Below, piece after piece: positions 39,763 through 64,000 of a stretch of DNA of 64,000 nucleotides; position 1 is the first letter of the stretch; every line of letters starts with the position of its first letter. The notes beneath the pieces were generated by a model. That model saw only the letters and a program-made list of their open reading frames with translations, did no database searches and was not told the DNA's origin. Source of the stretch: Roseburia sp. AF12-17LB (GTDB taxonomy: Bacteria; Bacillota_I; Bacilli_A; RF39; UBA660); the NCBI GenBank assembly GCA_963607615.1, contig CAVDCT010000005.1, positions 30,754 through 94,753 of the forward strand, given 5' to 3'. The position numbers and the translations under genes were made by a program.

Positions 39763-41958
39763 ATGAAAAATATTATAAATGGTATATATAAATATTTTTT
39801 GATTTTTATGTTACTACTTTGGATTTTTATTTCGTGGTCCTCTATATTTAATATTTATCCAACTATGGGAAACGATATTGAATTATCATCATTAGTTATT
39901 ATGTTAGGTGTAAGTTTAGTTTTATTATTTTTAGTTTTTATATATAGAAAAATTATTTTATACTCTGAAAAAATGCATAATAAAATAGCATTTTTTCTAT
40001 GTATATTTTCATTTATAATATTATGCGTTTGGGGATTAACTCATAAGGTATTGTTTACCTATGATTTAAATCATATTGTAGATGAAGTTTATGTCTTATT
40101 AAATAATAAAAATCATATAGTTGGTGATTCTTATTATTTTTCATTATACCCTAACCAAATACCTTTATTTATACTTATATATTTTATTAGTTTTTTAGGT
40201 TCATTATTAGGTATTCAACCTGGTGTATCAATGATTATTTATAATTGTTTTATGATTGCATTGTCATTTTTGTTTATGTATAAAATATTAAAAGAGATTT
40301 TCAATAGTAAAATAGCATTAATTGGATTAATATTAATGATGTTAATCCCAGATTTTTATTTGTATTCTAGTTATTATTATACTGATATAATTTCTATTCC
40401 TTTTTCAATAATTGGATTTTATCTAATTATAAAATCTGATAAAGAAGAAGGCAAACTCTCTTTGGTTTTTCGAATTTTAGGAGGAGTATTGTTTGCTATT
40501 GGGTTTAAAATAAGAGTTGTGACAGTTTTCTTATTGCTCTCTTATTTTATAATTATAATATTTAAAGATAAATTTATAACTAATTTAAAGAGATTAATTC
40601 CTATTGCTGTAGCGTTTGTATGTATATTATTATTATATTCTAATGTTGCAGAACCATATTTTAAAATCAATATTAATAATAGTTATACTTTACCGGCAAC
40701 GCACTGGATAATGATGGGATCAAATACAGCTAATGATGGTAGTTATTCTGATGATGATGTTAGATATTCAGTTAATGCTGAAAATAAAATTGATGCTAAT
40801 TTGAGCAAGTTGAAAGAACGTTCTAAAAAAATTGATTTAAAATTTATAAATAACAAAATTAGACGTGTTTGGTCACAAGGTGATCATGATGTGACTAGAA
40901 AATATACTAATATAGAAAAAGTTGACAGTTTATATAAATTAATTATAGGTAGAGGTTCTATTTTTGTTAAATATTTAGAGCAAATAACAAAGGTTACTGT
41001 CTACATTCTTTTCTTGATTGCACTTGCAAACGATTTATTTCTTAAACAATCTATAATTAAAAGTAAAACGTCTGTTATTTTTGTTTCAATATTTGGTGCC
41101 TTTTTATTTTATTTATTTTGGGAGGCTTTATCGCGTTATAGTTTTTCTTTTATGCCATGGATTATTATAGCCGGGGCATATAGCGTTACTTTAATAGATA
41201 ATGCGCTTAAAATAAATACGATCTCTTTTGATCATAAAAAAATATACATTTATCCATTTAGAAAAATGTTAGGAATAGTACTTATAGTTTTCATGTTTTT
41301 AACTCTATTTCTTGGTTTTCTTAATTATTCCGTAAAAAAAAGAAACATTAATTTTATTAGATATAGCCAATATAGTACTAATGATAATGTACATATTGTT
41401 AACAATGAAATAAAACAAGTTTTTAGAGTAGATAAGGATTTTAATACTATTGAATTAGTATTCAATAAAGATAAATTAAATAAAGAAATTGATTATGAGT
41501 TTGAACTATATGATAATGATGACAATCTTATTTATACCAAAACATTTGATACTACATGGGCAACAAAGAATAAATATACTAAATTTAAATTTCCTCGCCA
41601 AAAAGTTAAAGGTAGTCAGGAATATTATTTTAAAATATATTCTAGTGACTCTAGTGAGAATAATTATTTGAATGTGGGGGTATCAACAATTGATAATTGT
41701 AAAAATAAGAATATTTATGAAAAAAATTTAGGATATGATGTTAATCCTAATGGTGAAACATATAGTGATGATAAGTTGTTGTGTAGCGAGTTACGATATA
41801 AAATAATAGATAATAAAAAAGGTAATATTATTAGTAAAAAGGTATTTATTATGATTTCTTTAGTTATATTTATCATAACATTGTATTGTTCTTATACTTT
41901 ATTGATTAATAATAATCGAAGAATTAAAAGAGTAAGAGTTAATAAGGAGGAGTTATAA
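39763..41958 (+). CDS. Polytopic membrane protein, putative GT-C-fold glycosyltransferase (PMT/ArnT/YfhO-like), paralogue A
   Basis: About 11 or more TM helices, an acidic DE-containing first outer loop (DLNHIVDEVYVL), a soluble domain of ~200 aa and a final C-terminal TM. The family assignment is tentative. Confidence 0.45.
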   Translation: MKNIINGIYKYFLIFMLLLWIFISWSSIFNIYPTMGNDIELSSLVIMLGVSLVLLFLVFIYRKIILYSEKMHNKIAFFLCIFSFIILCVWGLTHKVLFTYDLNHIVDEVYVLLNNKNHIVGDSYYFSLYPNQIPLFILIYFISFLGSLLGIQPGVSMIIYNCFMIALSFLFMYKILKEIFNSKIALIGLILMMLIPDFYLYSSYYYTDIISIPFSIIGFYLIIKSDKEEGKLSLVFRILGGVLFAIGFKIRVVTVFLLLSYFIIIIFKDKFITNLKRLIPIAVAFVCILLLYSNVAEPYFKININNSYTLPATHWIMMGSNTANDGSYSDDDVRYSVNAENKIDANLSKLKERSKKIDLKFINNKIRRVWSQGDHDVTRKYTNIEKVDSLYKLIIGRGSIFVKYLEQITKVTVYILFLIALANDLFLKQSIIKSKTSVIFVSIFGAFLFYLFWEALSRYSFSFMPWIIIAGAYSVTLIDNALKINTISFDHKKIYIYPFRKMLGIVLIVFMFLTLFLGFLNYSVKKRNINFIRYSQYSTNDNVHIVNNEIKQVFRVDKDFNTIELVFNKDKLNKEIDYEFELYDNDDNLIYTKTFDTTWATKNKYTKFKFPRQKVKGSQEYYFKIYSSDSSENNYLNVGVSTIDNCKNKNIYEKNLGYDVNPNGETYSDDKLLCSELRYKIIDNKKGNIISKKVFIMISLVIFIITLYCSYTLLINNNRRIKRVRVNKEEL

Positions 41959-44159
41959 TGAGTAATATAAAAAATAAAGCATATAAAATATTATCAGTAA
42001 TTATGCTTTTAATATGGGGATTTATTACTTATTCTTCAATATTTAATGTTTATCAAATCCGTGGTTTTTATGGTAAACCAGTATTACCACTTTTGATTGT
42101 ATTAGGAATTATTGTGTTATTATTGATGTTAGTAATGATTTATAAAAAAATAGAAAATTATAATGAGAAAATTCATAATAAGATTGCTTTAATCATAATT
42201 GGAATTTCTTTTATAGTATTACTTTGTTTTAGTTTAACTTATCAAGCTATTACAACTTATGATCTTAGTCACATTGTTGATCAGGTAAAAATGTTATTAA
42301 ATAATCATACTCATATTGTCGGAGATAATAATTACTTTTCAGTATATCCTAATCAAATCCCTTTATTTGTATTCGTATATTTTATGTCATTACTTGCTAC
42401 TATTATTAAAGTTGATCCAAATAATTTTATGATAATAATAAATTGTATATTAATAGCATTATCCTTCGAATTTACATATAAAATATTGAAAAAATTATTT
42501 GATAGTAGAATAGCATTAATAGGATTAATATTATTAGTTTTATGTCCTGATTTTTATTTATATGCAAGTTATTATTATACTGATATATTATGTATTCCAT
42601 TTTCTATTATTGGTTATTATTGTTTAATAATGTTAGATTATGAACCAAGAAAAAGAGGATATTTATATGGATTAATTGCTGGAATAATGTTTGCAATAGG
42701 GTGTAAGTTACGAGTTGTATCTGTATTTTTATTAATTGCTTTTATTATAGATGTTATATTAAAGAACAATATTAAAAATAGTATTAAAAAAATTGTACCA
42801 GTAATGATATCATTTATTGTTTTGGTATCATTGTATAGTAAGGTACTGGAGCCATACTTTAAAATTAATATTGATGATAAATATACTTTACCGTTTACAC
42901 ATTGGATAATGATGGGAGCTAATACTAATACAGATGGCGGATATGATTCATCTGATATAAATCTTACATTGTCGTATGATAATAAAATTAAAGGAAATAT
43001 AAATGAAATTAATAATCGAATAAAGAATCAAGATTTATTATTTGTAAGCAATAAGATTAGGCGAGTCTGGTCAAGTGGAGAATATGATAGTTTGCATAAG
43101 TATCAAAATGTTTCTAAAATAGATAATACCTATAATTTATTAATAGGTGAAGGTAGTATTGTTATTAGATATTTCCAACAAATACTAAAAGCTACAATTT
43201 ATTTATTATTTTTGATAACTATTGGTAGTCAATTATTAAGTAAAAATAAATATGAAGATAGTAAAGTTTCTAATTTAATTATATCAGTTTTTGGTGCTTT
43301 TATCTTTTATCTATTTTGGGAGGCTTTATCACGCTATAGTTTTTCGTTTTTACCATGGATTGTTATCGGAAGTTCGACAAGTATTAAAGGTATAGAACAG
43401 ATTTTGAAATACAAAACTCTTTCTTTTGATAAGAAAAAAATAAATTTAGTGCCTGCAAAAAAATGTTTGGGTATATTTGTGATTATATCTATGATTTTAT
43501 ATATAGGAATTGGTTTTTTTGAATATTGTATTAAAGAAGAAAAATATCCTCAAATAATTAGTAGGCAATATTCTGCTAATGGAAAATTAAAAATAGAGGG
43601 TAGTGGTTTGAAACAAGAATTTACTATATCTAGAGATTTTAATAATATTTCTTTATTTTTTAAGGCTAGTAAAAAAATGCGTAATCGAGATTATAAATTT
43701 GAACTATATAATGAAGACGATGAACTTTTATATTCTAGAAAGTTTAATACTGATTTGCTCAAAAAACACGATATGGTCGATTTTAAATTTCCTAAAGAAA
43801 AAGTTAATAGTAAGAAAACATATTATTTTAAGATATATCCACTTAAAGAAGCTGAAGAAGATAAAGCTCTATATATAAAAACTTATGTAATTGATAATTG
43901 TACAAGTAGTAAGAAAAAGAATGATGGATATGATGTTAATCCTAATGGTAAAACATATATGGATGATAAATTAGTTTGCGATGAAGTAGCTTTAGTGATC
44001 TCTAATGTTAATAAGCATGCCAAAATTGGGAAAAAATATTATATACCAATGGCTTTAGTAGTGTTATTTATAACATTTATATCAGTTAACTCACTTCTAT
44101 TAAAAAACAATGTAGTTAAATCAAAAACAAGGAAAAAAGTGTTAACTCATAAGAATTGA
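41958..44159 (+). CDS. Polytopic membrane protein, putative GT-C-fold glycosyltransferase, paralogue B
   Basis: Clearly paralogous to the upstream gene; e.g. YPNQIPLF...RIALIGLIL...PDFYLY.SYYYTDI..IPFSIIG.Y are shared. Same architecture. ATAATG stop/start overlap. Confidence 0.45.
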   Translation: MSNIKNKAYKILSVIMLLIWGFITYSSIFNVYQIRGFYGKPVLPLLIVLGIIVLLLMLVMIYKKIENYNEKIHNKIALIIIGISFIVLLCFSLTYQAITTYDLSHIVDQVKMLLNNHTHIVGDNNYFSVYPNQIPLFVFVYFMSLLATIIKVDPNNFMIIINCILIALSFEFTYKILKKLFDSRIALIGLILLVLCPDFYLYASYYYTDILCIPFSIIGYYCLIMLDYEPRKRGYLYGLIAGIMFAIGCKLRVVSVFLLIAFIIDVILKNNIKNSIKKIVPVMISFIVLVSLYSKVLEPYFKINIDDKYTLPFTHWIMMGANTNTDGGYDSSDINLTLSYDNKIKGNINEINNRIKNQDLLFVSNKIRRVWSSGEYDSLHKYQNVSKIDNTYNLLIGEGSIVIRYFQQILKATIYLLFLITIGSQLLSKNKYEDSKVSNLIISVFGAFIFYLFWEALSRYSFSFLPWIVIGSSTSIKGIEQILKYKTLSFDKKKINLVPAKKCLGIFVIISMILYIGIGFFEYCIKEEKYPQIISRQYSANGKLKIEGSGLKQEFTISRDFNNISLFFKASKKMRNRDYKFELYNEDDELLYSRKFNTDLLKKHDMVDFKFPKEKVNSKKTYYFKIYPLKEAEEDKALYIKTYVIDNCTSSKKKNDGYDVNPNGKTYMDDKLVCDEVALVISNVNKHAKIGKKYYIPMALVVLFITFISVNSLLLKNNVVKSKTRKKVLTHKN

Positions 44160-44250
44160 TAATAAGGTTATATTTTATAAATGTTACAAATGTATTGTTG
44201 TATAATGAATTTACATCGTGATATAATTAAGATAATTAATGAGGTGTATT

Positions 44251-45387
44251 ATGACAGTTATAATAAAAATTGGAACTATATTTCTAAATATTATTTACTT
44301 TTTTCTTAAACTTTGTCCTACTCAAAATAAAATTACAATGATTAGTAGACAAAGTGATAAAGAAACAATGGATTTTAAATTACTTAGAAAAGAAATAACT
44401 AAAAGAGATAATAAATTGAAAGTAGTTATACTTTGCCATAAGTTGGATGGTGGAATTAATTCAACAATAATAACTAGATTGAAGTATATTTTTCATATGT
44501 TTAAACAGATGTATCATATTGCTACTTCTAGAGTTGTCATATTAGATTCATATTGTATTGTTGTATCAATTTTAAAACATAAGAAGCGATTAAGGGTAAT
44601 TCAAATATGGCATTCTATGGGAACAATGAAAAAATTTGGCTATGCTGTTTTAGGACTAGAAGAGGGTAGTAACGAACGTGTAGCAAAGGCTATGAAAATG
44701 CATAGAAATTATGATTATATTTTTGCTAGTAGTGAGGCCTATAAAAGTCATTTAGCAAGTGGTTTTAATTATACAACAAAAAATATATTAACATATCCAT
44801 TACCACGATATGATTTGTTGAAAGATAGTGAGTTTCAGCAAAAATGTAAGAATAAAATAGAAAATACTTATCCAAATTTAAAGAAGAATAAAAACATTAT
44901 TTATTGTCCAACATTTAGAAAAGATGAGAGCGAACTTGATGAAGCTATAAAAAAGTTAATAGATTGTGTTGATACTAAAAAGTATAATTTAGTTATAAAG
45001 TTGCATCCTTTATCTAAAATAAAGCTTAGCAATGCTAAAAAGGGAGTTATCATAGATACGAAGTATCCAACGTTTGATATGTTAGCAATAGCTGATTATG
45101 TTATCAGTGATTACTCTTGTGTTATATATGAAGCTGCAATAAAAAATATTCCGTTATATTTTTATAATTTTGATATGAATTTATATACAAATAGTAGGGG
45201 ACTTGCAATAGATTACAATAATGAATTACCAGGAGTAATATCCAGTGATCCGAGAGTTATTATTAATGATATAGAGAAGAATAATTATGATTATCTAGAA
45301 TTAAAGAAATTTACTGATAAATATGTTAAACCTACAAAACATGCTACTGCTGATATAGTTGATTTCATATTTAAAATAATGATATAA
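44251..45387 (+). CDS. CDP-glycerol glycerophosphotransferase family protein (TagB-like, short form)
   Basis: IWHSMGTMKKFGY, CPTFRKDE and ISDYSCVIYEAAIKNIPLYFY motifs of the TagB/TagF family. GAGGTG RBS before the ATG at 44251. Confidence 0.7.
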   Translation: MTVIIKIGTIFLNIIYFFLKLCPTQNKITMISRQSDKETMDFKLLRKEITKRDNKLKVVILCHKLDGGINSTIITRLKYIFHMFKQMYHIATSRVVILDSYCIVVSILKHKKRLRVIQIWHSMGTMKKFGYAVLGLEEGSNERVAKAMKMHRNYDYIFASSEAYKSHLASGFNYTTKNILTYPLPRYDLLKDSEFQQKCKNKIENTYPNLKKNKNIIYCPTFRKDESELDEAIKKLIDCVDTKKYNLVIKLHPLSKIKLSNAKKGVIIDTKYPTFDMLAIADYVISDYSCVIYEAAIKNIPLYFYNFDMNLYTNSRGLAIDYNNELPGVISSDPRVIINDIEKNNYDYLELKKFTDKYVKPTKHATADIVDFIFKIMI

Positions 45388-45413
45388 TGAATATATACGA
45401 TGGGAGAGATAGG

Positions 45414-46280
45414 ATGAGTAAACAAAAAAATATAGCAATTATATTTGCTGGAGGAACAGGACAACGCTTTGGGTCAGAAATACCTAAACAATTTGTTAAT
45501 ATATATGGAAAACAAATTATTGTTCATACATTGGAAGCTTTTCAAAATCATCCAGAAATTGATGAAATATATATTGGGTGTATTAGTGATTGGATTCCAT
45601 ATTTAGAAAAATTAATAGATTATTATGGTATAAGTAAGGTTCCAAAAGATGGTATTGTTTCTGGCGGAGAAAGTGGTCAAGATACAATTTATAAAATTTT
45701 ATGTAAGGCTAGAGAATATAGTAAAGATGAAGACATTGTTTTGATTCATGATGGTGTAAGACCAATTGTTACTAGTGAGGAAATAAGCGCTAATATTGAA
45801 TCAGTGAAAAAGTATGGTTCTGGTATAACTTGTATTCCATTTTCAGAAACACCTGTTTTTAGTGAAAGTGGTCAATTTATTGACAAAACTTTAGATCGTA
45901 AGCAAATGTTCAGGGGTGTAGCACCTCAAAGTTTTAGGTTGAAACATATTTTGGATGCTCATTTAAAAATACGAGAAAATGATCCAGGATATAGTGGGAT
46001 TTATAATGGTGGTACTATTGTTGATTCTGCATCTTTAGTTAAGGCTGCATTTGATGAAAATTGTGCTATTGTTGAAGGAAATCCTAATAATATGAAGGTA
46101 ACTAATATGGGAGATTTCTTTGCTTTGCTTGGAATATTACAAAGTAATGATATAGCTAATTATTTCATAGGACAAAAAGCTAATTCTTTTCCTTTGAATT
46201 CTGCTATGCTTTATTCTCAACAAAAGGAAGAAAAATTAACTGGTAAACGAAAGTTAGGAGATGAAAATAATGATTATTAA
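45414..46280 (+). CDS. IspD/TarI-family cytidylyltransferase (putative CDP-alditol synthase, e.g. ribitol-5-phosphate cytidylyltransferase)
   Basis: IAIIFAGGTGQRFGSEIPKQFVNIYGKQIIVHTLEAF N-terminal signature of the IspD/TarI family. Confidence 0.75.
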   Translation: MSKQKNIAIIFAGGTGQRFGSEIPKQFVNIYGKQIIVHTLEAFQNHPEIDEIYIGCISDWIPYLEKLIDYYGISKVPKDGIVSGGESGQDTIYKILCKAREYSKDEDIVLIHDGVRPIVTSEEISANIESVKKYGSGITCIPFSETPVFSESGQFIDKTLDRKQMFRGVAPQSFRLKHILDAHLKIRENDPGYSGIYNGGTIVDSASLVKAAFDENCAIVEGNPNNMKVTNMGDFFALLGILQSNDIANYFIGQKANSFPLNSAMLYSQQKEEKLTGKRKLGDENNDY

Positions 46281-47373
46281 TGAAGTTATTGATGAGGATA
46301 CACAACAAATAATAGATGAAAATAACGGACTTGAAGAATTAAACAATTGTACTGTGTTAATAACTGGAGCTAGTGGTATGATTGGTAGCTATTTCGTGTA
46401 TACTTTGATGAAATTAAATGAAGACTATGGAAGAAATATTACAATTATTCCTGTGGTTAGAAATTTAAATAAATTGTCTAGTCAAGTTTTAGAAAAGACA
46501 TACGTTTACCCAATTGTTCAAGATGTATGTACACCGCTTACGTATGAAGGTAGTGTTGATTATGTTATTCATGCAGCATCGCCTGCAAGCCCTAAAATAA
46601 TGAAAGAACATCCAGTTGAAACTAATTTTGCTAATACAATTGGAACTGCTAATACGTTGATGTTTTCTTTGAATAAAAAAGTTAAAGGATATTTATATAT
46701 ATCTTCTAGGGAAATTTATGGGCAACCAATGCCTGGACAGGAAGTTTTTACTGAAGACGGTCCTTTAGGTCAAGTTGATCCTTTAGTTCCAAGAAACGGA
46801 TATGCTGAGGGTAAGAAAGCTGCAGAAAATATGTGTAGTGGTTTTAAGGAAGAACATGGTTTAAATACTAAGATTGTTCGTTTAGCACATACATATGGTC
46901 CAGGAATGTCTATTTATGATGGACGTGTACAAGCTGATTTTTTAAAAAATATTGTTAATAATGAAAATATAGTGTTAAAAAGTGATGGTTCTTCAGTTAG
47001 AACTTATACTTATATAAGCGATGCCGTTAGTGCTATGTTTAAAGTTTTACTTTCGAGTAAAGATTTAGTTTATAATATCGCGGATGAACGTAATAAAACA
47101 TCAATTAGAGAGTTAGCTGAAACTTTAGTTAGTATTTATCCAGAAAAAAATTTAAAATTGGTTTTTGATATACCAAAAAGCGATGTTAATCAAGGTACAG
47201 CATCTTTTACTTTGGGAATTTTATCAACGAAAAAGATTAAAAATGAATTGGGATGGCAAGCCAAATATAATACAAAAGAAGGATTTGCTAGGACCTTAAG
47301 ATATTTAAATTTAACTATGGAAAAAGATAAAAATATTGAAAAAGATAGAAATAAAGTTAAATCTTTGCAATAA
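46270..47373 (+). CDS. NAD-dependent epimerase/dehydratase (extended SDR) family protein, possible sugar-phosphate reductase partner of TarI
   Basis: LITGASGMIGSYFV Rossmann motif and a Y...K active-site pattern (NGYAEGKKAAE). Overlaps the cytidylyltransferase gene. Confidence 0.7.
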   Translation: MIINEVIDEDTQQIIDENNGLEELNNCTVLITGASGMIGSYFVYTLMKLNEDYGRNITIIPVVRNLNKLSSQVLEKTYVYPIVQDVCTPLTYEGSVDYVIHAASPASPKIMKEHPVETNFANTIGTANTLMFSLNKKVKGYLYISSREIYGQPMPGQEVFTEDGPLGQVDPLVPRNGYAEGKKAAENMCSGFKEEHGLNTKIVRLAHTYGPGMSIYDGRVQADFLKNIVNNENIVLKSDGSSVRTYTYISDAVSAMFKVLLSSKDLVYNIADERNKTSIRELAETLVSIYPEKNLKLVFDIPKSDVNQGTASFTLGILSTKKIKNELGWQAKYNTKEGFARTLRYLNLTMEKDKNIEKDRNKVKSLQ

Positions 47374-47409
47374 TATTTTTTTATAGACATATATATTATA
47401 GTGTTAGAT

Positions 47410-47438
47410 TTGACAAAAAGACTAAACAATGATAAAAT
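47410..47438 (+). promoter_or_regulatory. Sigma-A promoter driving the non-coding region
   Basis: TTGACA (47410-47415), a 17-nt spacer, then TAAAAT (47433-47438). Confidence 0.55.
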
Positions 47439-47444
47439 TTAATT

Positions 47445-48054
47445 CATTCATGGCGCATTATTCTAGTCAATAATATTTATCATGAGGGCGGGACTAAAAA
47501 ACCGCATAAGAGCATAACTGTGAAACTTCTGGTGTTTGCTTTTTACGCCCAGTTTAGGGTGAATGCTGGAAGGTAGAGTGTTGGGCATCCACAATGGCAT
47601 GTGCAAATGACCCACCATTCATGGAGACCTATTTATGTGTTAAGCCTATACGTTCCATACTGATGGACTTAATACGGAATAGGATTAAACCTATCATGTG
47701 ACGCAAGTTATGGGTAGTGTAGCTTGTCTTGAGTGATTATTGGGGATAATATAGTATTAATAATACAGTAGCTAAGTTTATTAATGATTTCTTGTTTGAA
47801 ACAATAGTTGCAAAAAAGTACTAGTGATAAATTAATTGGGGAGGAAATCTCCTAGAGTGTATTAATATAGGATTATAGTGCGTACTAAGTGGTAATCAAG
47901 CCATATAACCAGTGATGTTATATTAGTTTCCTTAAAGGGGAACCGCAATTAGGTAACGAGTTGTGGAAACTAGAGAAATTCTGCTTGACCTATGACGTAA
48001 AGTTAACTATGTTAAATGCCATTAATGTTCAAAGGACAGATGTCCTTTTTTTTG
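47445..48054 (+). ncRNA. Large (~610 nt) structured non-coding RNA; candidate OLE-like (or other large ornate) ncRNA
   Basis: No ORF longer than 60 aa in any frame. Local GC is clearly higher than the flanking ~28% (GGGCGGG, CGCCC, GGGCATCCACAATGGCATG segments). Many internal complementary segments (GGGCG...CGCCC, GGAGGAAATCTCC, GTTTCCttaaaGGGGAAC). Bounded by a canonical promoter and an intrinsic terminator on the + strand. Lacks tmRNA, RNase P and SRP hallmark motifs. Confidence 0.5.
48031..48054 (+). terminator. Rho-independent terminator at the ncRNA 3' end
   Basis: AAAGGAC-agat-GTCCTTT hairpin followed by TTTTTTT. Confidence 0.7.
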
Positions 48055-48088
48055 TTGCATTAAATATATGCCGAAATTAGTACTTTGA

Positions 48089-48117
48089 TTGACAAAGTTA
48101 TATAAATAAGATAAAAT
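48089..48117 (+). promoter_or_regulatory. Sigma-A promoter for the downstream small membrane-protein gene
   Basis: TTGACA (48089-48094), a 17-nt spacer, then TAAAAT (48112-48117). Nearly the same -35/-10 flavour as the ncRNA promoter. Confidence 0.5.
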
Positions 48118-48144
48118 GATGATGGTTATATATTGGGGGTATTT

Positions 48145-48711
48145 ATGTCGAAGGATGATAGTAAACGGATAGAAAAGAAAAAAAACAAAAAAATAGCTAA
48201 CTTAAAATGGAGTTTTAGTTTAATGGGGATAGCTGCTTTGATATCTATTATATTATCATTTATATCAGAGATTGCTATGCGTGATGTTAGTTTATTAGTT
48301 GGAACTTTTGTTATTATTGTTTTTATCGGTATTGGAGTTTTATTTGATACTATTGGTGTAGCAGTAACTAGTGCAGATGAGGCACCTTTTCATTCCATGA
48401 GTTCTAAAAGAGTTAAGGGTGCTAAAATGGCTGTTATGTTAAAGAAGAATTCTGACAAAGTATCATCTTTTTGTTGTGATGTTATTGGGGATATTTGTGG
48501 AATTGTATCGGGTGCTGCAGGAGTTGCTGTTGCTAGTAAGATGACTTTATTGTTTGGTATATATACTGTTATTAGTGGTTTAATTGTAACTGGATTCATA
48601 GCAGCTCTTACAATCGGTGGAAAGTCATTTGAAAAGGCTATTGCAATAAATAATGGTAATAAAATATTATATGAATTTGCTAAAGTTTTAAGTATCTTCA
48701 GCAAAAATTGA
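48145..48711 (+). CDS. Small four-TM membrane protein (possible OapA-like OLE-associated protein; otherwise unknown function)
   Basis: About 189 aa with roughly four predicted TM helices (IAALISIILSFISEIAM; LLVGTFVIIVFIGIGVLF; ICGIVSGAAGVAVA; TVISGLIVTGFIAALTIGG). GGGGG RBS 5 nt before the ATG at 48145. Confidence 0.55.
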   Translation: MSKDDSKRIEKKKNKKIANLKWSFSLMGIAALISIILSFISEIAMRDVSLLVGTFVIIVFIGIGVLFDTIGVAVTSADEAPFHSMSSKRVKGAKMAVMLKKNSDKVSSFCCDVIGDICGIVSGAAGVAVASKMTLLFGIYTVISGLIVTGFIAALTIGGKSFEKAIAINNGNKILYEFAKVLSIFSKN

Positions 48712-48721
48712 TGGAGGAATT

Positions 48722-49504
48722 ATGAAAAAGTTTATATATAATTTGAAAAAATATTTTAAGTATGCTGTGTATTCAGCCAAAGCTGAATTAAAAAGTGAAG
48801 TTGCTGATTCATATCTAAATTGGTTATGGTGGATAATAGAACCGGTTTGTTTTATGTTAATATACACTTTTGTATTTGGAGTTGTCTTTAAGAATAGTGA
48901 GGAATATTTTGCATCATTTGTATTTGTAGGATTAACAGCTTGGGAGTTTTTTAATCGAATGATTAATGGTAGTGTTAAATTGATTATTAATAATCGTGAT
49001 TTAGTTACTAAAGTATATATTCCTAAATATATATTATTGTTGTCTAAATCATTTACTTATCTGTTTAAGATGGGAATATCTTTAATAATTACTTTCATTT
49101 TAATGGCTGTTCAACATGTTCCTTTTTCATGGCATATTATTTTATTTATTCCTATTCTTATAGTACTGTATATATTGTCATTTGGAATTGGTTTAATATT
49201 GATGCATTATGGTGTTACTTTTAATGATCTTGGAAATTTGACTAATATTGGGCTTAAAATGATATTTTATCTATCAGGAGTATTCTATAATATATCAAAT
49301 CGTTTAAAAGGACGATTAGCTAATATATTGTTGTTTGCTAATCCTATAGCATTTTGTATGAATGAACTTAGAAAAGTATTAATATATGGACAGTTACCTA
49401 ATTTCTTATGGTTAGGCTTTTGGTTACTAATTGGTTTAGGATTATGCGCAATAGGTATTCATGTTATTCATAAAAATGAAAATAGTTATGCGAAGGTGAT
49501 ATAA
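48722..49504 (+). CDS. tagG: ABC-2 type transporter permease (TagG-like teichoic acid exporter)
   Basis: Six-TM ABC-2 permease. Immediately upstream of, and overlapping, a TagH-like ATPase gene inside a WTA locus. Confidence 0.8.
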   Translation: MKKFIYNLKKYFKYAVYSAKAELKSEVADSYLNWLWWIIEPVCFMLIYTFVFGVVFKNSEEYFASFVFVGLTAWEFFNRMINGSVKLIINNRDLVTKVYIPKYILLLSKSFTYLFKMGISLIITFILMAVQHVPFSWHIILFIPILIVLYILSFGIGLILMHYGVTFNDLGNLTNIGLKMIFYLSGVFYNISNRLKGRLANILLFANPIAFCMNELRKVLIYGQLPNFLWLGFWLLIGLGLCAIGIHVIHKNENSYAKVI

Positions 49505-50253
49505 TGGGAGATAAGAATAAAACTAAAAAAAATATTGCTATAACAGTTAAAGATTTACATATAACATATCGTGGGTTGAAGAAGACATCGATTCGTGCAT
49601 CTTGGAAGAAGCTGGGTGATAAAGTTGAACTTTTTAAAGCTTTAAAAGGTGTTAATTTCGAGGTTGAAGAAGGAAAAATATTAGGTATAATTGGTAAAAA
49701 TGGTTCGGGTAAATCTACTATGTTGCGTGCTATCGCAGGTATTTTTTCACCAGACAAAGGGACGATAGATTTACATGGAAATTCAATATCTTTATTGTCT
49801 ATTGGTGTTGGTTTCAACAAAAAATTAACGGGTAAAGAAAATATTTATTTATCAGGTATGTTACTAGGATTTTCAGAAGAAGAAATAGCAAGAAAAGAAA
49901 AAGAAATAATTGCTTTTGCAGATATTGGAAATTTTATTGACAAACCTGTAAAAACTTATTCATCAGGAATGTATTCTAAATTGGCTTTTGCTATAACAGC
50001 GATACTAGAAACAGATATTATGTTAATAGACGAGGTATTATCTGTTGGAGATGCTAAATTTAAAGAAAAAAGCTATAATAAGATGAAAGAACTTATTTCA
50101 GATGAACATCGAACAGTTATAATTGTTTCACACAGTTTAGGAACAATTAAAGAATTGTGCAATGAAGTTTTATGGCTAAATGATGGTGAAGTTATTATGA
50201 TGGGGTCACCAAATGAAGTTTTGCCAAAGTATGAAGAATTTATGAAAAAGTAG
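49504..50253 (+). CDS. tagH: ABC transporter ATP-binding protein (TagH-like teichoic acid export ATPase)
   Basis: Walker A GKNGSGKST, signature YSSGMYSKLAF, Walker B MLIDEVLSVGD, and H-loop VSHS. Confidence 0.85.
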   Translation: MGDKNKTKKNIAITVKDLHITYRGLKKTSIRASWKKLGDKVELFKALKGVNFEVEEGKILGIIGKNGSGKSTMLRAIAGIFSPDKGTIDLHGNSISLLSIGVGFNKKLTGKENIYLSGMLLGFSEEEIARKEKEIIAFADIGNFIDKPVKTYSSGMYSKLAFAITAILETDIMLIDEVLSVGDAKFKEKSYNKMKELISDEHRTVIIVSHSLGTIKELCNEVLWLNDGEVIMMGSPNEVLPKYEEFMKK

Positions 50254-51239: not shown

Positions 51240-51262
51240 AAGAGGATTAAACCTCTTTTTTA
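51240..51262. terminator. Bidirectional terminator between folD and the convergent LysM gene
   Basis: AAGAGG-attaaa-CCTCTT hairpin followed by TTTTT. Confidence 0.55.
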
Positions 51263-51976
51263 GTATGTTTTAGGTAAATCATTATCGTTTGTTTTTAGTG
51301 ATTCATTTAAACTTTCTTTTAATTTGAATATTTCTTTTTTTAAATCACCAATTTCAGGATTAATTATATAAATTGTATCTCCAGCATATATATTAGCATT
51401 ATTCATTTTATTATATTCCATTATTCTTTTCGCAATAGCATATGCCTCATCGTCGTCTCCAGCACCTTTATATGCTAAACTAGATATAGTATCCCCAGCT
51501 TTAATTTGATATTGAACCCATACATCTAATGATTCTATTTGTTGGTTAATATTTTCAATTCTTTCCAAATATATATTGTTTTGTGTAGTAAGAGCTGGAA
51601 TAATTAAATCTTGAAAAGGAGTAATATTATTTTTACTTATATTATTTATTTTGGCAATCTCTTCTATATAATCATCAAGTGTTCTATAGTAAGTTGAATA
51701 TATATCTTTATTATAATATTTTTCTGCTATAGTTGTTAATGTATCATTTTTTTCTACTTGTTCAGTTGTATATACTTGAACATATCCAGTTGGAATACTA
51801 GTTGCATATTCTTGAGCACTTGGCTTTGACATCCCTGCACCAATAATAATAGCTGATGTTACAAGCAATACAAAGCAATTTGCCTTTCTTAATTTTAATT
51901 TTTTCTTTTTATTCTTTAGTTTTGGATAATTAATATTATTAATTCGTAATCTATTATCATTTATTGCATTATTCAT
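51260..51976 (-). CDS. LysM-domain membrane-anchored protein
   Basis: N-terminal basic region and TM segment. Two LysM-like segments (YVQVYTTEQVEKNDTLTTIAEKYY...; YQIKAGDTISSLAYKG...YAGDTIYI). AGAGGTG RBS. Confidence 0.6.
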   Translation of the reverse strand: MNNAINDNRLRINNINYPKLKNKKKKLKLRKANCFVLLVTSAIIIGAGMSKPSAQEYATSIPTGYVQVYTTEQVEKNDTLTTIAEKYYNKDIYSTYYRTLDDYIEEIAKINNISKNNITPFQDLIIPALTTQNNIYLERIENINQQIESLDVWVQYQIKAGDTISSLAYKGAGDDDEAYAIAKRIMEYNKMNNANIYAGDTIYIINPEIGDLKKEIFKLKESLNESLKTNDNDLPKTY

Positions 51977-63815: not shown

Positions 63816-64000
63816 TTAATATAGCTTAATACTTATAAAGTGTTGGGCTTTTTTTATGGATATTTGTTAGAGTGTAATCTGAATATTGTTTTTAACTTTA
63901 TCCTTGTAATACACTTTAATTTATGATAAACTTAATATGATATAGAATATTGGGGATGGTAGTTGACTATGACTAGTATTGTTTTTGAATTTTTGAGATT

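What the first reader, a model, noticed from the sequence alone, without database searches (positions are those of the whole stretch)
47410..48117. ~610-nt GC-rich, ORF-free, promoter-to-terminator transcript inside the teichoic-acid locus: candidate large structured ncRNA (OLE-like?)
This is the longest non-coding stretch in the window (47374-48144). It is not a simple intergenic spacer. It has a textbook sigma-A promoter (TTGACA, 17-nt spacer, TAAAAT at 47410-47438) and a clean intrinsic terminator (48031-48054). No ORF longer than 60 aa occurs in any frame. Its GC content is visibly well above the surrounding ~28% (runs such as GGGCGGGACT, TTACGCCCAGTTTAGGGTGAATGCTGG, GGGCATCCACAATGGCATGTGC). 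It contains many mutually complementary segments (GGGCG/CGCCC about 60 nt apart; GGAGGAAATCTCC; GTTTCCTTAAAGGGGAAC; CCACCATTCATGG palindrome). That is the signature of a highly structured RNA in an AT-rich genome. About 600 nt is far larger than riboswitches, 6S, SRP or tmRNA, and no RNase P or tmRNA hallmark motifs are present. Known ~600-nt bacterial ncRNA classes in Firmicutes include OLE, ROOL and GOLLD. OLE RNA is characteristically followed by oapA, a small ~21-kDa four-TM membrane protein. Here a separately promoted 4-TM protein of ~189 aa follows immediately, and folD (part of the classical OLE neighbourhood) lies 2.3 kb downstream. The canonical ispA/dxs neighbours are missing and the element instead sits between WTA synthesis genes and tagGH. 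If it is not OLE, it could be a new large ncRNA class associated with cell-envelope polymer synthesis.
Basis: partly seen in the sequence, partly recalled or inferred. Interest (0 to 1): 0.88.

Follow-up and report, generated by a model that had tools for sequence, protein, structure and literature searches.

The report
OLE RNA gene with oapA
The 610-nt non-coding stretch is a full-length copy of the already described OLE RNA, a large structured bacterial RNA that works at the membrane with its partner protein OapA (encoded just downstream); the only unusual point is that the pair sits inside a teichoic-acid gene cluster.

Summary
Window 47434-48038 (+) matches the Rfam OLE model (RF01071) end to end at 362.9 bits, against a gathering score of 50 (E 5e-103). 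It is the only Rfam hit in the window. The promoter, the terminator, the lack of ORFs and the raised GC are all real. In a structure-blind alignment of 70 homologues, 87.8% of cells in the OLE helices are paired (37-46% in slid controls), and 123 of 151 pairs show compensatory changes. The long-range P3 helix also covaries. The OapB-site GNRA loops and the palindromic dimerisation loop (AGCU) are present.

The host is an uncultured gut-type Bacilli lineage. The usual ispA/dxs neighbours are replaced by teichoic-acid synthesis genes upstream and an apparent oapA-tagG-tagH operon downstream. Only 3 of 81 lineages examined show this. It is a known family and a textbook member, so interest is low, apart from a weak, untested hint of a cell-wall link.

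The parts
47410..47438 (+). Sigma-70/sigma-A type promoter of ole: -35 TTGACA (47410-47415), 17-nt spacer with an extended -10 TG (47430-47431), -10 TAAAAT (47433-47438). The predicted start is near 47445.
   Evidence: 11/12 match. A promoter of 10/12 or better sits at the same place in 53 of 69 homologous loci, against 1 of 69 control segments. B. halodurans OLE has an experimentally active proximal promoter (PMC3413148).
47445..48053 (+). OLE RNA gene (ole). The predicted transcript is about 609 nt. The Rfam match covers 47434-48038 and the conserved core about 47451-48021.
   Evidence: RF01071, 362.9 bits, model positions 1-616. (137 of 152 model pairs are canonical here). (covariation).
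47475..47483 (+). 5' strand of the long-range helix P3. It pairs with 47824-47832 and encloses P4-P9 (domain 1). A possible P3.1 (CAAT 47468-47471 with ATTG 47835-47838) was seen by eye only.
   Evidence: 9 of 9 pairs. (82.6% paired against 36-64% when slid; all 9 pairs show double changes). The name follows J3/4 and J9/3 in PMC12265935.
47824..47832 (+). 3' strand of the long-range helix P3.
47487..47506 (+). P4-region hairpin, GGCGGG / ACCGCA, with the conserved CUAAAAA loop.
   Evidence: helix 1, 90% paired.
47526..47572 (+). P5/P5.1 hairpin with the invariant GCCCA loop (47547-47551). The flanking junctions form the published OapC k-turn region.
   Evidence: helix 2, 91% paired. The name follows the numbering in PMC9723947. 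The k-turn itself was not tested.
47576..47620 (+). P6 with the conserved AAUGGCAU loop.
   Evidence: helices 3-4.
47628..47717 (+). P7 (47628-47683) and P8 (47691-47717). Both are present, so this is the 'full-length' type and not the RF39-type variant 2.
   Evidence: helices 5-6. Variant definitions are in PMC11332333.
47726..47821 (+). Long P9 stem. Its tip carries the palindrome AGCU (47770-47773), the kissing-loop position that bridges the RNA dimer.
   Evidence: 66 of 70 homologues carry GGCC, AGCU, GAUC or GUAC at this tip. GGCC/GAUC/AGCU covariation is reported in PMC12286853.
47841..47851 (+). P10 hairpin, GAG-GAAAU-CUC.
   Evidence: helix 13, 100% paired.
47861..48017 (+). 3' domain. 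P12 (47861-47870/48007-48017), P12.1 (47879-47883/47995-47999), P12.2 (47896-47901/47983-47988). P13 (47903-47923) with a GUGA loop at 47912-47915 and a 1-nt bulge, which is the OapB site. P14 (47924-47931/47965-47972). P14.1 (47945-47964) with a GUAA loop.
   Evidence: helices 15-20, 90-100% paired. OapB determinants are in PMC7936274.
48031..48053 (+). Intrinsic terminator of ole: AAAGGAC-AGAT-GUCCUUU followed by a U run.
   Evidence: A similar terminator is present in L005. By a strict definition it occurs in 17 of 70 loci, against 1 of 70 controls.
48089..48117 (+). Second sigma-70-type promoter (TTGACA-17-TAAAAT), in front of oapA.
   Evidence: 11/12 match.
48145..48711 (+). oapA: OLE-associated protein A, 188 aa, four TM helices, DxxxD motif at D112-D116.
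48722..50253 (+). tagG (48722-49504, ABC-2 permease) and tagH (49504-50253, teichoic-acid export ATPase). They start 10 nt after the oapA stop with no terminator between, so an oapA-tagG-tagH operon is likely. This is context, not an established part of the OLE system.
   Evidence: The same order is found in L005.

Best explanation
The region is the gene for an OLE (ornate, large, extremophilic) RNA, and the next gene is its membrane partner oapA.

Shown here:
- The RNA has its own strong sigma-A-type promoter and an intrinsic terminator, giving a transcript of about 609 nt.
- Its sequence fits the full OLE covariance model.
- All the major helices (P3-P10, P12-P14.1) are present and covary among homologues.
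- It retains the GNRA loops and the bulge that form the OapB site, and a palindromic P9 tip used for RNA dimerisation.
- The 188-aa downstream protein has the OapA hallmarks.

Inferred from work on Halalkalibacterium halodurans and from the Clostridium cryo-EM structures:
- The RNA is abundant and stable and forms a homodimer.
- It is bound by OapA, a CNNM/CorB-like putative divalent-cation transporter, and so is held at the membrane. The P3 helix possibly passes through the membrane.
- The ribonucleoprotein helps the cell cope with stresses such as cold, short-chain alcohols, excess Mg2+ and poor carbon sources. Its precise biochemical activity is still unknown in the field.

In this uncultured gut-type Bacilli lineage the ole-oapA pair has lost the classical isoprenoid/DNA-repair neighbourhood and sits between wall-teichoic-acid synthesis genes and tagGH. 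oapA is probably co-transcribed with tagGH.
For: - Rfam OLE hit: 362.9 bits against a gathering score of 50, E 5e-103, model positions 1-616, the only family hit in 64 kb.
- 137 of 152 model pairs are canonical in the window sequence.
- On a structure-blind MAFFT alignment of 70 homologues, 87.8% of cells are paired against 37-46% in slid controls. 123 of 151 pairs have double changes. The covariation score is 0.48 against about 0.1, and 0 of 500 shuffles reach it.
- The P3 long-range helix covaries.
- GUGA and GUAA tetraloops and the P13 bulge are present, matching PMC7936274.
- The P9 tip carries AGCU, matching PMC12286853.
- Promoter and terminator are present. The promoter is conserved in 53 of 69 loci, against 1 of 69 controls. 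This is consistent with the active proximal promoter in B. halodurans (PMC3413148).
- OLE lies upstream on the same strand in 75 of 80 reference-genome loci that encode this protein family. Some of those loci have the classical xseA-ispA | ole-oapA | dxs-tlyA-nadK-argR-recN order.
Against: - Nothing contradicts the identification.
- The small hairpin between P10 and P12 (Rfam model positions 424-435, presumably P11) is deleted. The same is true of most gut-Bacilli relatives in alignment A2.
- The distal part of P9 pairs poorly in the MAFFT alignment (27-62% of cells). This is most likely misalignment of a length-variable tip.
- Expression, transcript ends, dimerisation, OapA binding and any phenotype are untested for this organism.
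- Whether OapB and OapC exist in this genome cannot be seen from a 64-kb window.
Confidence: 0.97

Rival explanations
1. It is an OLE RNA, and in this lineage the OLE-OapA particle is also functionally coupled to wall-teichoic-acid synthesis or export. For example, it could sense or modulate TagGH-dependent export, rather than merely lying next to those genes.
For: - The oapA stop (48711) is 10 nt from the tagG start, and tagG and tagH overlap. No terminator lies between them.
- TagF-like, TarI-like and epimerase genes lie directly upstream.
- The same order is kept in L005 at only 66% OapA identity.
- The more distant L044 has MBOAT/DHHW | ole | acyltransferase | oapA | GT2-TagF | tagG | tagH.
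- Published speculation holds that OLE domain 2 reaches the cell wall, and that dltE and yqhY are frequent neighbours (PMC12265935).
Against: - Only 3 of 81 lineages examined show teichoic-acid adjacency.
- Neighbours of ole-oapA in gut Bacilli are highly variable, so rearrangement by chance is the simpler reading.
- Envelope genes are common in any genome, and no enrichment statistic was computed.
- There are no functional data.
Confidence: 0.12
2. The structured region is mainly a cis-acting 5' leader that controls oapA-tagGH through its terminator (attenuation), rather than a free-standing RNA.
For: - It lies directly upstream of oapA on the same strand and ends in a terminator.
- In most relatives OLE ends a median of 62 nt before oapA, and 53 of 70 lack a strict terminator, so co-transcription is plausible.
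Against: - It matches the full 616-position OLE model. OLE is known as a stable trans-acting RNP component with a half-life of about 3 h (PMC3413148).
- A separate near-consensus promoter stands between the terminator and oapA.
- In several relatives ole and oapA are separated by 1-4 kb of other genes.
Confidence: 0.02
3. It is a decaying, non-functional OLE remnant.
For: The P11-like hairpin is missing, and 15 of 152 model pairs are non-canonical.
Against: - The window shares all 107 alignment columns that are invariant across the 70 homologues.
- The same deletion is shared by most of the clade.
- The promoter, terminator, protein-binding loops and an intact oapA are all retained.
- All four independent metagenome contigs carry an equally strong OLE match, nhmmer E 1e-184.
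Confidence: 0.01

Closest known systems
OLE RNA (Rfam RF01071), as characterised in Halalkalibacterium (Bacillus) halodurans and solved by cryo-EM for Clostridium acetobutylicum and C. botulinum
   Same: - Length of about 600 nt and a full match to the model.
- The same helices (P3-P10, P12-P14.1).
- The same invariant loops: GCCCA, AAUGGCAU and the UAAAGGGGAACC junction.
- GNRA loops of the OapB site and a palindromic P9 kissing loop.
- Its own proximal promoter, with oapA immediately downstream.
   Different: - The small hairpin between P10 and P12 is absent.
- The P9 tip is AGCU rather than the majority GGCC.
- The host is an uncultured, AT-rich, gut-type Bacilli lineage rather than a classical extremophile.
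- The neighbourhood is teichoic-acid genes and tagGH instead of xseAB-ispA / dxs-tlyA-recN.
OLE 'variant 1' (TANB77) and 'variant 2' (RF39) forms from reduced-genome gut bacteria (Fernando and Breaker 2024)
   Same: It comes from an uncultured, gut-associated Bacillota lineage and has lost a small substructure.
   Different: P7 and P8 are present, P9 is long, and the P13 OapB site is intact. So it belongs to the full-length type and not to either variant.
OapA / MpfA-CorB-CorC (CNNM) family
   Same: - It gives a weak PF01595 match.
   Different: - It is OapA-type: 188 aa with a TM domain only and no CBS or CorC domains.
- It has four TM helices rather than three.
- It has the DxxxD motif.
Other large ornate bacterial RNAs (ROOL, GOLLD, raiA)
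   Same: They are large, structured and non-coding, and are also found in Bacillota.
   Different: No gathering-level match to any of them anywhere in the window.

Membership tests
OLE RNA (RF01071) | Covariance-model score above the curated gathering threshold over the full model | tested here: met
   362.9 bits against 50, E 5e-103, model positions 1-616 of 616, not truncated.
OLE RNA (RF01071) | Conserved multi-stem secondary structure supported by covariation among homologues | tested here: met
   87.8% of cells paired against 37-46% slid. 123 of 151 pairs have double changes. 0 of 500 shuffles reach the observed value. The alignment was structure-blind MAFFT.
OLE RNA (RF01071) | Long-range P3 helix enclosing P4-P9 and linking the two domains | tested here: met
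   47475-47483 pairs with 47824-47832, 9 of 9 pairs. 82.6% paired across homologues, and all 9 pairs covary.
OLE RNA (RF01071) | P13 hairpin with a GNRA tetraloop and single-nucleotide bulge (OapB site), plus a second GNRA loop on P14.1 | tested here: met
   GUGA at 47912-47915 with a 9/8-nt stem (1-nt bulge), and GUAA at 47953-47956. The criteria come from PMC7936274.
OLE RNA (RF01071) | Palindromic tetranucleotide at the P9 tip (intermolecular kissing loop of the dimer) | tested here: met
   AGCU at 47770-47773. 66 of 70 homologues carry GGCC, AGCU, GAUC or GUAC there. Reported in PMC12286853.
OLE RNA (RF01071) | K-turn at the base of P5 (OapC site) | not tested
   The flanking junction sequences are conserved in alignment A2, but the k-turn geometry was not examined.
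OLE RNA (RF01071) | oapA as the immediate downstream neighbour | tested here: met
   oapA lies at 48145-48711, 92 nt after the terminator T run ends at 48053. OLE is upstream in 75 of 80 homologous loci.
OLE RNA (RF01071) | Host belongs to Bacillota | tested here: inconclusive
   The source is not given. The closest reference loci are all MAGs labelled Bacilli, Bacillales or Bacillota, best at 66% OapA identity. The gene content (tagGH, TagF, LysM/YneA-like) fits a Gram-positive host.
OLE RNA (RF01071) | Abundant stable transcript, membrane localisation, stress phenotypes | not testable with these tools
   Known only from H. halodurans experiments (PMC3413148; PMC11332333).
OapA | Small protein of about 21 kDa with four transmembrane helices | tested here: met
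   188 aa, 20.0 kDa, four hydrophobic segments. The AlphaFold model has long helices at 3-44, 50-76, 103-137 and 141-169, pLDDT 84.
OapA | DxxxD motif | tested here: met
   D112-V-I-G-D116. D112 and D116 are invariant in 23 homologues. The feature is described in PMC11332333.
OapA | Distant CNNM similarity: sequence match below the Pfam threshold and a CorB-like fold | tested here: met
   [not shown]
OapA | No CBS or CorC domains (this distinguishes it from MpfA) | tested here: met
   Only the weak CNNM match is found, and the protein ends at residue 188.
OapA | Cooperative binding to OLE RNA and membrane recruitment | not testable with these tools
   Biochemical property (Block et al. 2011, cited in PMC12265935).
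ROOL / GOLLD / raiA / riboswitch leaders | Match to the respective Rfam model | tested here: not met
   The only gathering-level Rfam hit in the whole window is OLE.

The most novel reading that the evidence does not exclude
In this lineage and a few other gut Bacilli lineages, the OLE-OapA particle has been recruited into a wall-teichoic-acid operon (oapA-tagG-tagH, with the synthesis genes directly upstream). It may act on, or sense, teichoic-acid export. That would be the first concrete genomic link between OLE RNA and a specific cell-envelope polymer pathway. It would fit the 2025 proposal that OLE spans the membrane and contacts the wall.
Probability: 0.1. Interest if true: 0.55.

Novelty: already known. 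Interest (0 to 1): 0.2.

Why it matters
As an identification it changes nothing. OLE RNA has been known since 2006, and more than 2,800 representatives have been catalogued across Bacillota (PMC11332333). This copy would be annotated by any Rfam-based pipeline.

Two things have modest value. First, the result shows that reading raw sequence alone can correctly flag a large structured RNA and its partner gene. Second, the teichoic-acid and tagGH context, with a probable oapA-tagG-tagH operon, is a rare arrangement. It could be added to the neighbourhood evidence (dltE, yqhY) that the field uses to argue for a cell-wall connection of this still-enigmatic RNA.

Tried and rejected
- A first attempt at the long-range P3 helix used arms mis-indexed by one base each. 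It gave 41.9% pairing, while the '+2 slide' control gave 80%. The corrected register was confirmed.
- My first terminator detector missed even the window's own terminator, because the T run overlaps the 3' arm of the stem. I replaced it with the definition used.
- A profile of OapA homologues finds no solved structure by sequence. Only the fold comparison shows the CorB/CorC relationship.
- A literature search for 'OLE RNA' plus 'teichoic' returned nothing. A search with 'folD' was useless because it matched the word 'fold'. So the claim that folD belongs to the classical OLE neighbourhood rests on my own recollection of Puerta-Fernandez et al. 2006. In my data folD lies within about 6 kb of oapA in only 4 of 80 reference loci, plus the window.
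- Small-ORF reading rejected: the 51-, 35- and 39-aa ORFs stay open in only 5, 12 and 17 of 69 relatives.
- Cis-regulatory leader and pseudogene readings were considered and rejected; see the rival explanations.
- The NCBIfam and Pfam searches failed because the start coordinate was off by one. They were repeated.

Full report
**Observation**

The region was read directly and scanned.
- A near-consensus sigma-70/sigma-A promoter lies at 47410-47438: TTGACA, 17 nt, TAAAAT, with an extended -10 TG.
- The only terminator-like site in 47000-49000 lies at 48031-48048 and is followed by a T run.
- A second promoter with the same hexamers lies at 48089-48117.
- No ORF of 60 aa or more overlaps 47430-48132 on either strand. 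This 703-nt stretch is the longest ORF-free stretch in the window. The next is 185 nt, at 63816-64000, and is cut by the window end.
- GC is 36.2% for 47445-48054 and 41% in the 5' half, against 26.6% for the window.

'GC-rich' holds only relative to a very AT-rich genome.

**Identity of the RNA**

A scan of the whole window against Rfam 15 at gathering thresholds gives a single hit. It is OLE (RF01071) at 47434-48038 (+), with 362.9 bits against a gathering score of 50, E 5e-103, covering model positions 1-616 without truncation. When the model's structure is projected onto the window sequence, 137 of 152 pairs are canonical or G-U. The only missing element is a 12-nt hairpin between P10 and P12 (model positions 424-435).

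**Independent test of structure**

- I collected loci that encode homologues of the downstream protein from one genome per GTDB species. I located the OLE homologues with nhmmer, using the window sequence as query.
- I aligned 70 of them with MAFFT, which knows nothing about structure.
- On that alignment 87.8% of cells in the Rfam helices form standard pairs, against 37-46% when the 3' partners are slid by 1-3 columns.
- 123 of 151 pairs show changes on both sides. The covariation score is 0.48 against about 0.1. None of 500 shuffles reaches the observed values.
- Only the distal, length-variable part of the long P9 stem pairs poorly. This is probably misalignment.
- A long-range helix that is not in the Rfam structure line, 47475-47483 with 47824-47832, pairs perfectly in the window. 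Across homologues it is 82.6% paired against 36-64%, and all nine pairs covary. Its position, between the 5' leader and P4 on one side and between P9 and P10 on the other, identifies it as P3. This is the helix that recent work proposes spans the membrane (PMC12265935).

**Published functional determinants**

- The P13 hairpin has a GUGA tetraloop (47912-47915) and a one-nucleotide bulge. P14.1 has a GUAA loop (47953-47956). These are the features needed for OapB binding (PMC7936274).
- The P9 tip carries AGCU (47770-47773). It is one of the covarying palindromes (GGCC, GAUC, AGCU) that form the intermolecular kissing loop of the OLE dimer (PMC12286853). 66 of 70 homologues have such a palindrome.
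- P7 and P8 are present and P9 is long. The RNA therefore belongs to the 'full-length' type, not to the shortened variants described for TANB77 and RF39 gut lineages (PMC11332333).
- The small internal ORFs are not conserved.

**The downstream protein**

- The ORF at 48145-48711 encodes 188 aa (20.0 kDa) with four hydrophobic segments.
- It has only a sub-threshold match to the CNNM domain, 20.4 bits against a cut-off of 28.4. This is how OapA behaves according to Fernando and Breaker.
- It carries the OapA-specific DxxxD motif, D112-VIG-D116. Both aspartates are invariant in 23 homologues.
- In 75 of 80 reference loci that encode this family, OLE lies upstream on the same strand.
- In the Clostridia among them the order is the classical xseA, ispA | ole, oapA | dxs, tlyA, nadK, argR, recN. 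This ties the family to the published definition of oapA.

**Transcription units**

- A promoter of 10/12 or better lies just upstream of the conserved OLE 5' end in 53 of 69 loci, against 1 of 69 control segments. Its -10 hexamer mostly ends 5-9 nt before the position aligned to 47445.
- This agrees with the experimentally active proximal promoter and the highly stable transcript in B. halodurans (PMC3413148).
- A strict terminator follows OLE in 17 of 70 loci, including the window and its closest relative, against 1 of 70 controls. Elsewhere ole and oapA are probably co-transcribed.
- In the window, oapA has its own promoter. tagG follows 10 nt after the oapA stop, tagH overlaps tagG, and no terminator lies between them. 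An oapA-tagG-tagH operon is therefore likely. This is inferred.

**Context**

- Upstream are two PMT_2-family glycosyltransferases, a TagF-like glycerophosphotransferase, a TarI-like cytidylyltransferase and an epimerase.
- Downstream are tagG, tagH, folD, a LysM/YneA-like gene on the other strand, a MurJ/flippase-like gene, secDF, relA and dtd.
- The same arrangement occurs in four independent metagenome contigs. It also occurs in the closest reference genome, 'Bacillales bacterium UBA5578' (L005), at 66% OapA identity.
- One more distant MAG (L044) has MBOAT/DHHW | ole | acyltransferase | oapA | GT2-TagF | tagG | tagH.
- In the other gut-Bacilli loci the neighbours vary. Recurrent ones are a glucosaminidase-like protein (16 loci), a polysaccharide deacetylase (6) and a phosphodiester glycosidase (6).
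- The literature lists dltE and yqhY as frequent, cell-wall-related neighbours and speculates that OLE domain 2 contacts the wall. No paper in the library mentions OLE together with teichoic acid.
- With 3 of 81 lineages and no enrichment test, I treat the teichoic-acid context as a lineage-specific rearrangement with at most a weak functional hint.

**Mechanism**

Shown here: the gene, its signals, its fold-defining helices and its partner gene.

Inferred from H. halodurans genetics and Clostridium cryo-EM: the RNA dimerises, binds OapA, localises to the membrane, and contributes to tolerance of cold, alcohols, Mg2+ and poor carbon sources. The biochemical activity of the particle remains unknown in the field.

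**Verdict**

This is a correct first-stage call of a known RNA family. It is a canonical member with a minor structural deletion shared by its clade and an unusual but rare genomic neighbourhood. Novelty: already known. Interest: low.

Noticed in passing
L008, L025, L061, L078 (whole loci); L007, L009, L018, L026, L042, L044: Four reference loci (L008, L025, L061, L078) encode a clear oapA homologue but show no OLE within the roughly 6 kb held upstream (nhmmer E<=1e-3). A fifth, L080, also shows none, but only about 180 nt of upstream sequence is held. In six others ole and oapA are separated by 1-4 kb of inserted genes. So the tight ole-oapA pairing is sometimes broken in gut Bacilli MAGs.
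   Followed up: partly
L047:4361-5062 and 15 other loci; L016:3037-4329; L070:2149-3417: Cell-envelope enzymes recur next to ole-oapA in the gut-Bacilli relatives. They are a glucosaminidase-like protein upstream (16 loci), a polysaccharide deacetylase upstream (6) and a phosphodiester glycosidase (NAGPA) downstream (6). No enrichment test was done.
   Followed up: partly
window 47973-47981: GAGAAAUUC between P14 and the 3' strand of P12.2 can form a 3-bp mini-hairpin, presumably P15, which is not in the Rfam structure line. The window has A-U where most homologues have G-C (GGGAAAUCC), which suggests covariation. This was seen by eye in alignment A2 and not formally counted.
   Followed up: no
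window 47468-47471 with 47835-47838: CAAT/ATTG could extend P3 as P3.1 across a small internal bulge. That would give about 13 bp in total, close to the roughly 12 bp quoted for P3 plus P3.1. It was not tested for covariation.
   Followed up: no
window 41958-47373 and upstream (L001:1-9229): There is a wall-teichoic-acid-type cluster: a large TagF-domain protein (896 aa), two tandem PMT_2-family glycosyltransferases that are 48% identical to each other, a TagF-like protein, a TarI-like cytidylyltransferase and an NAD-dependent epimerase/dehydratase.
   Followed up: partly
window 51260-51976 (-): A LysM-domain protein gives a sub-threshold match to the cell-division suppressor YneA model (49.8 bits against a cut-off of 60). 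It converges on folD.
   Followed up: no
A2 columns 133-153 and 322-366 (rows L052, L062, L066, L073, L077, L081): The Oscillospiraceae-type OLE RNAs carry extra GC-rich hairpin insertions after P5 and at the tip of P8. These are absent from the window and from the gut-Bacilli sequences.
   Followed up: no
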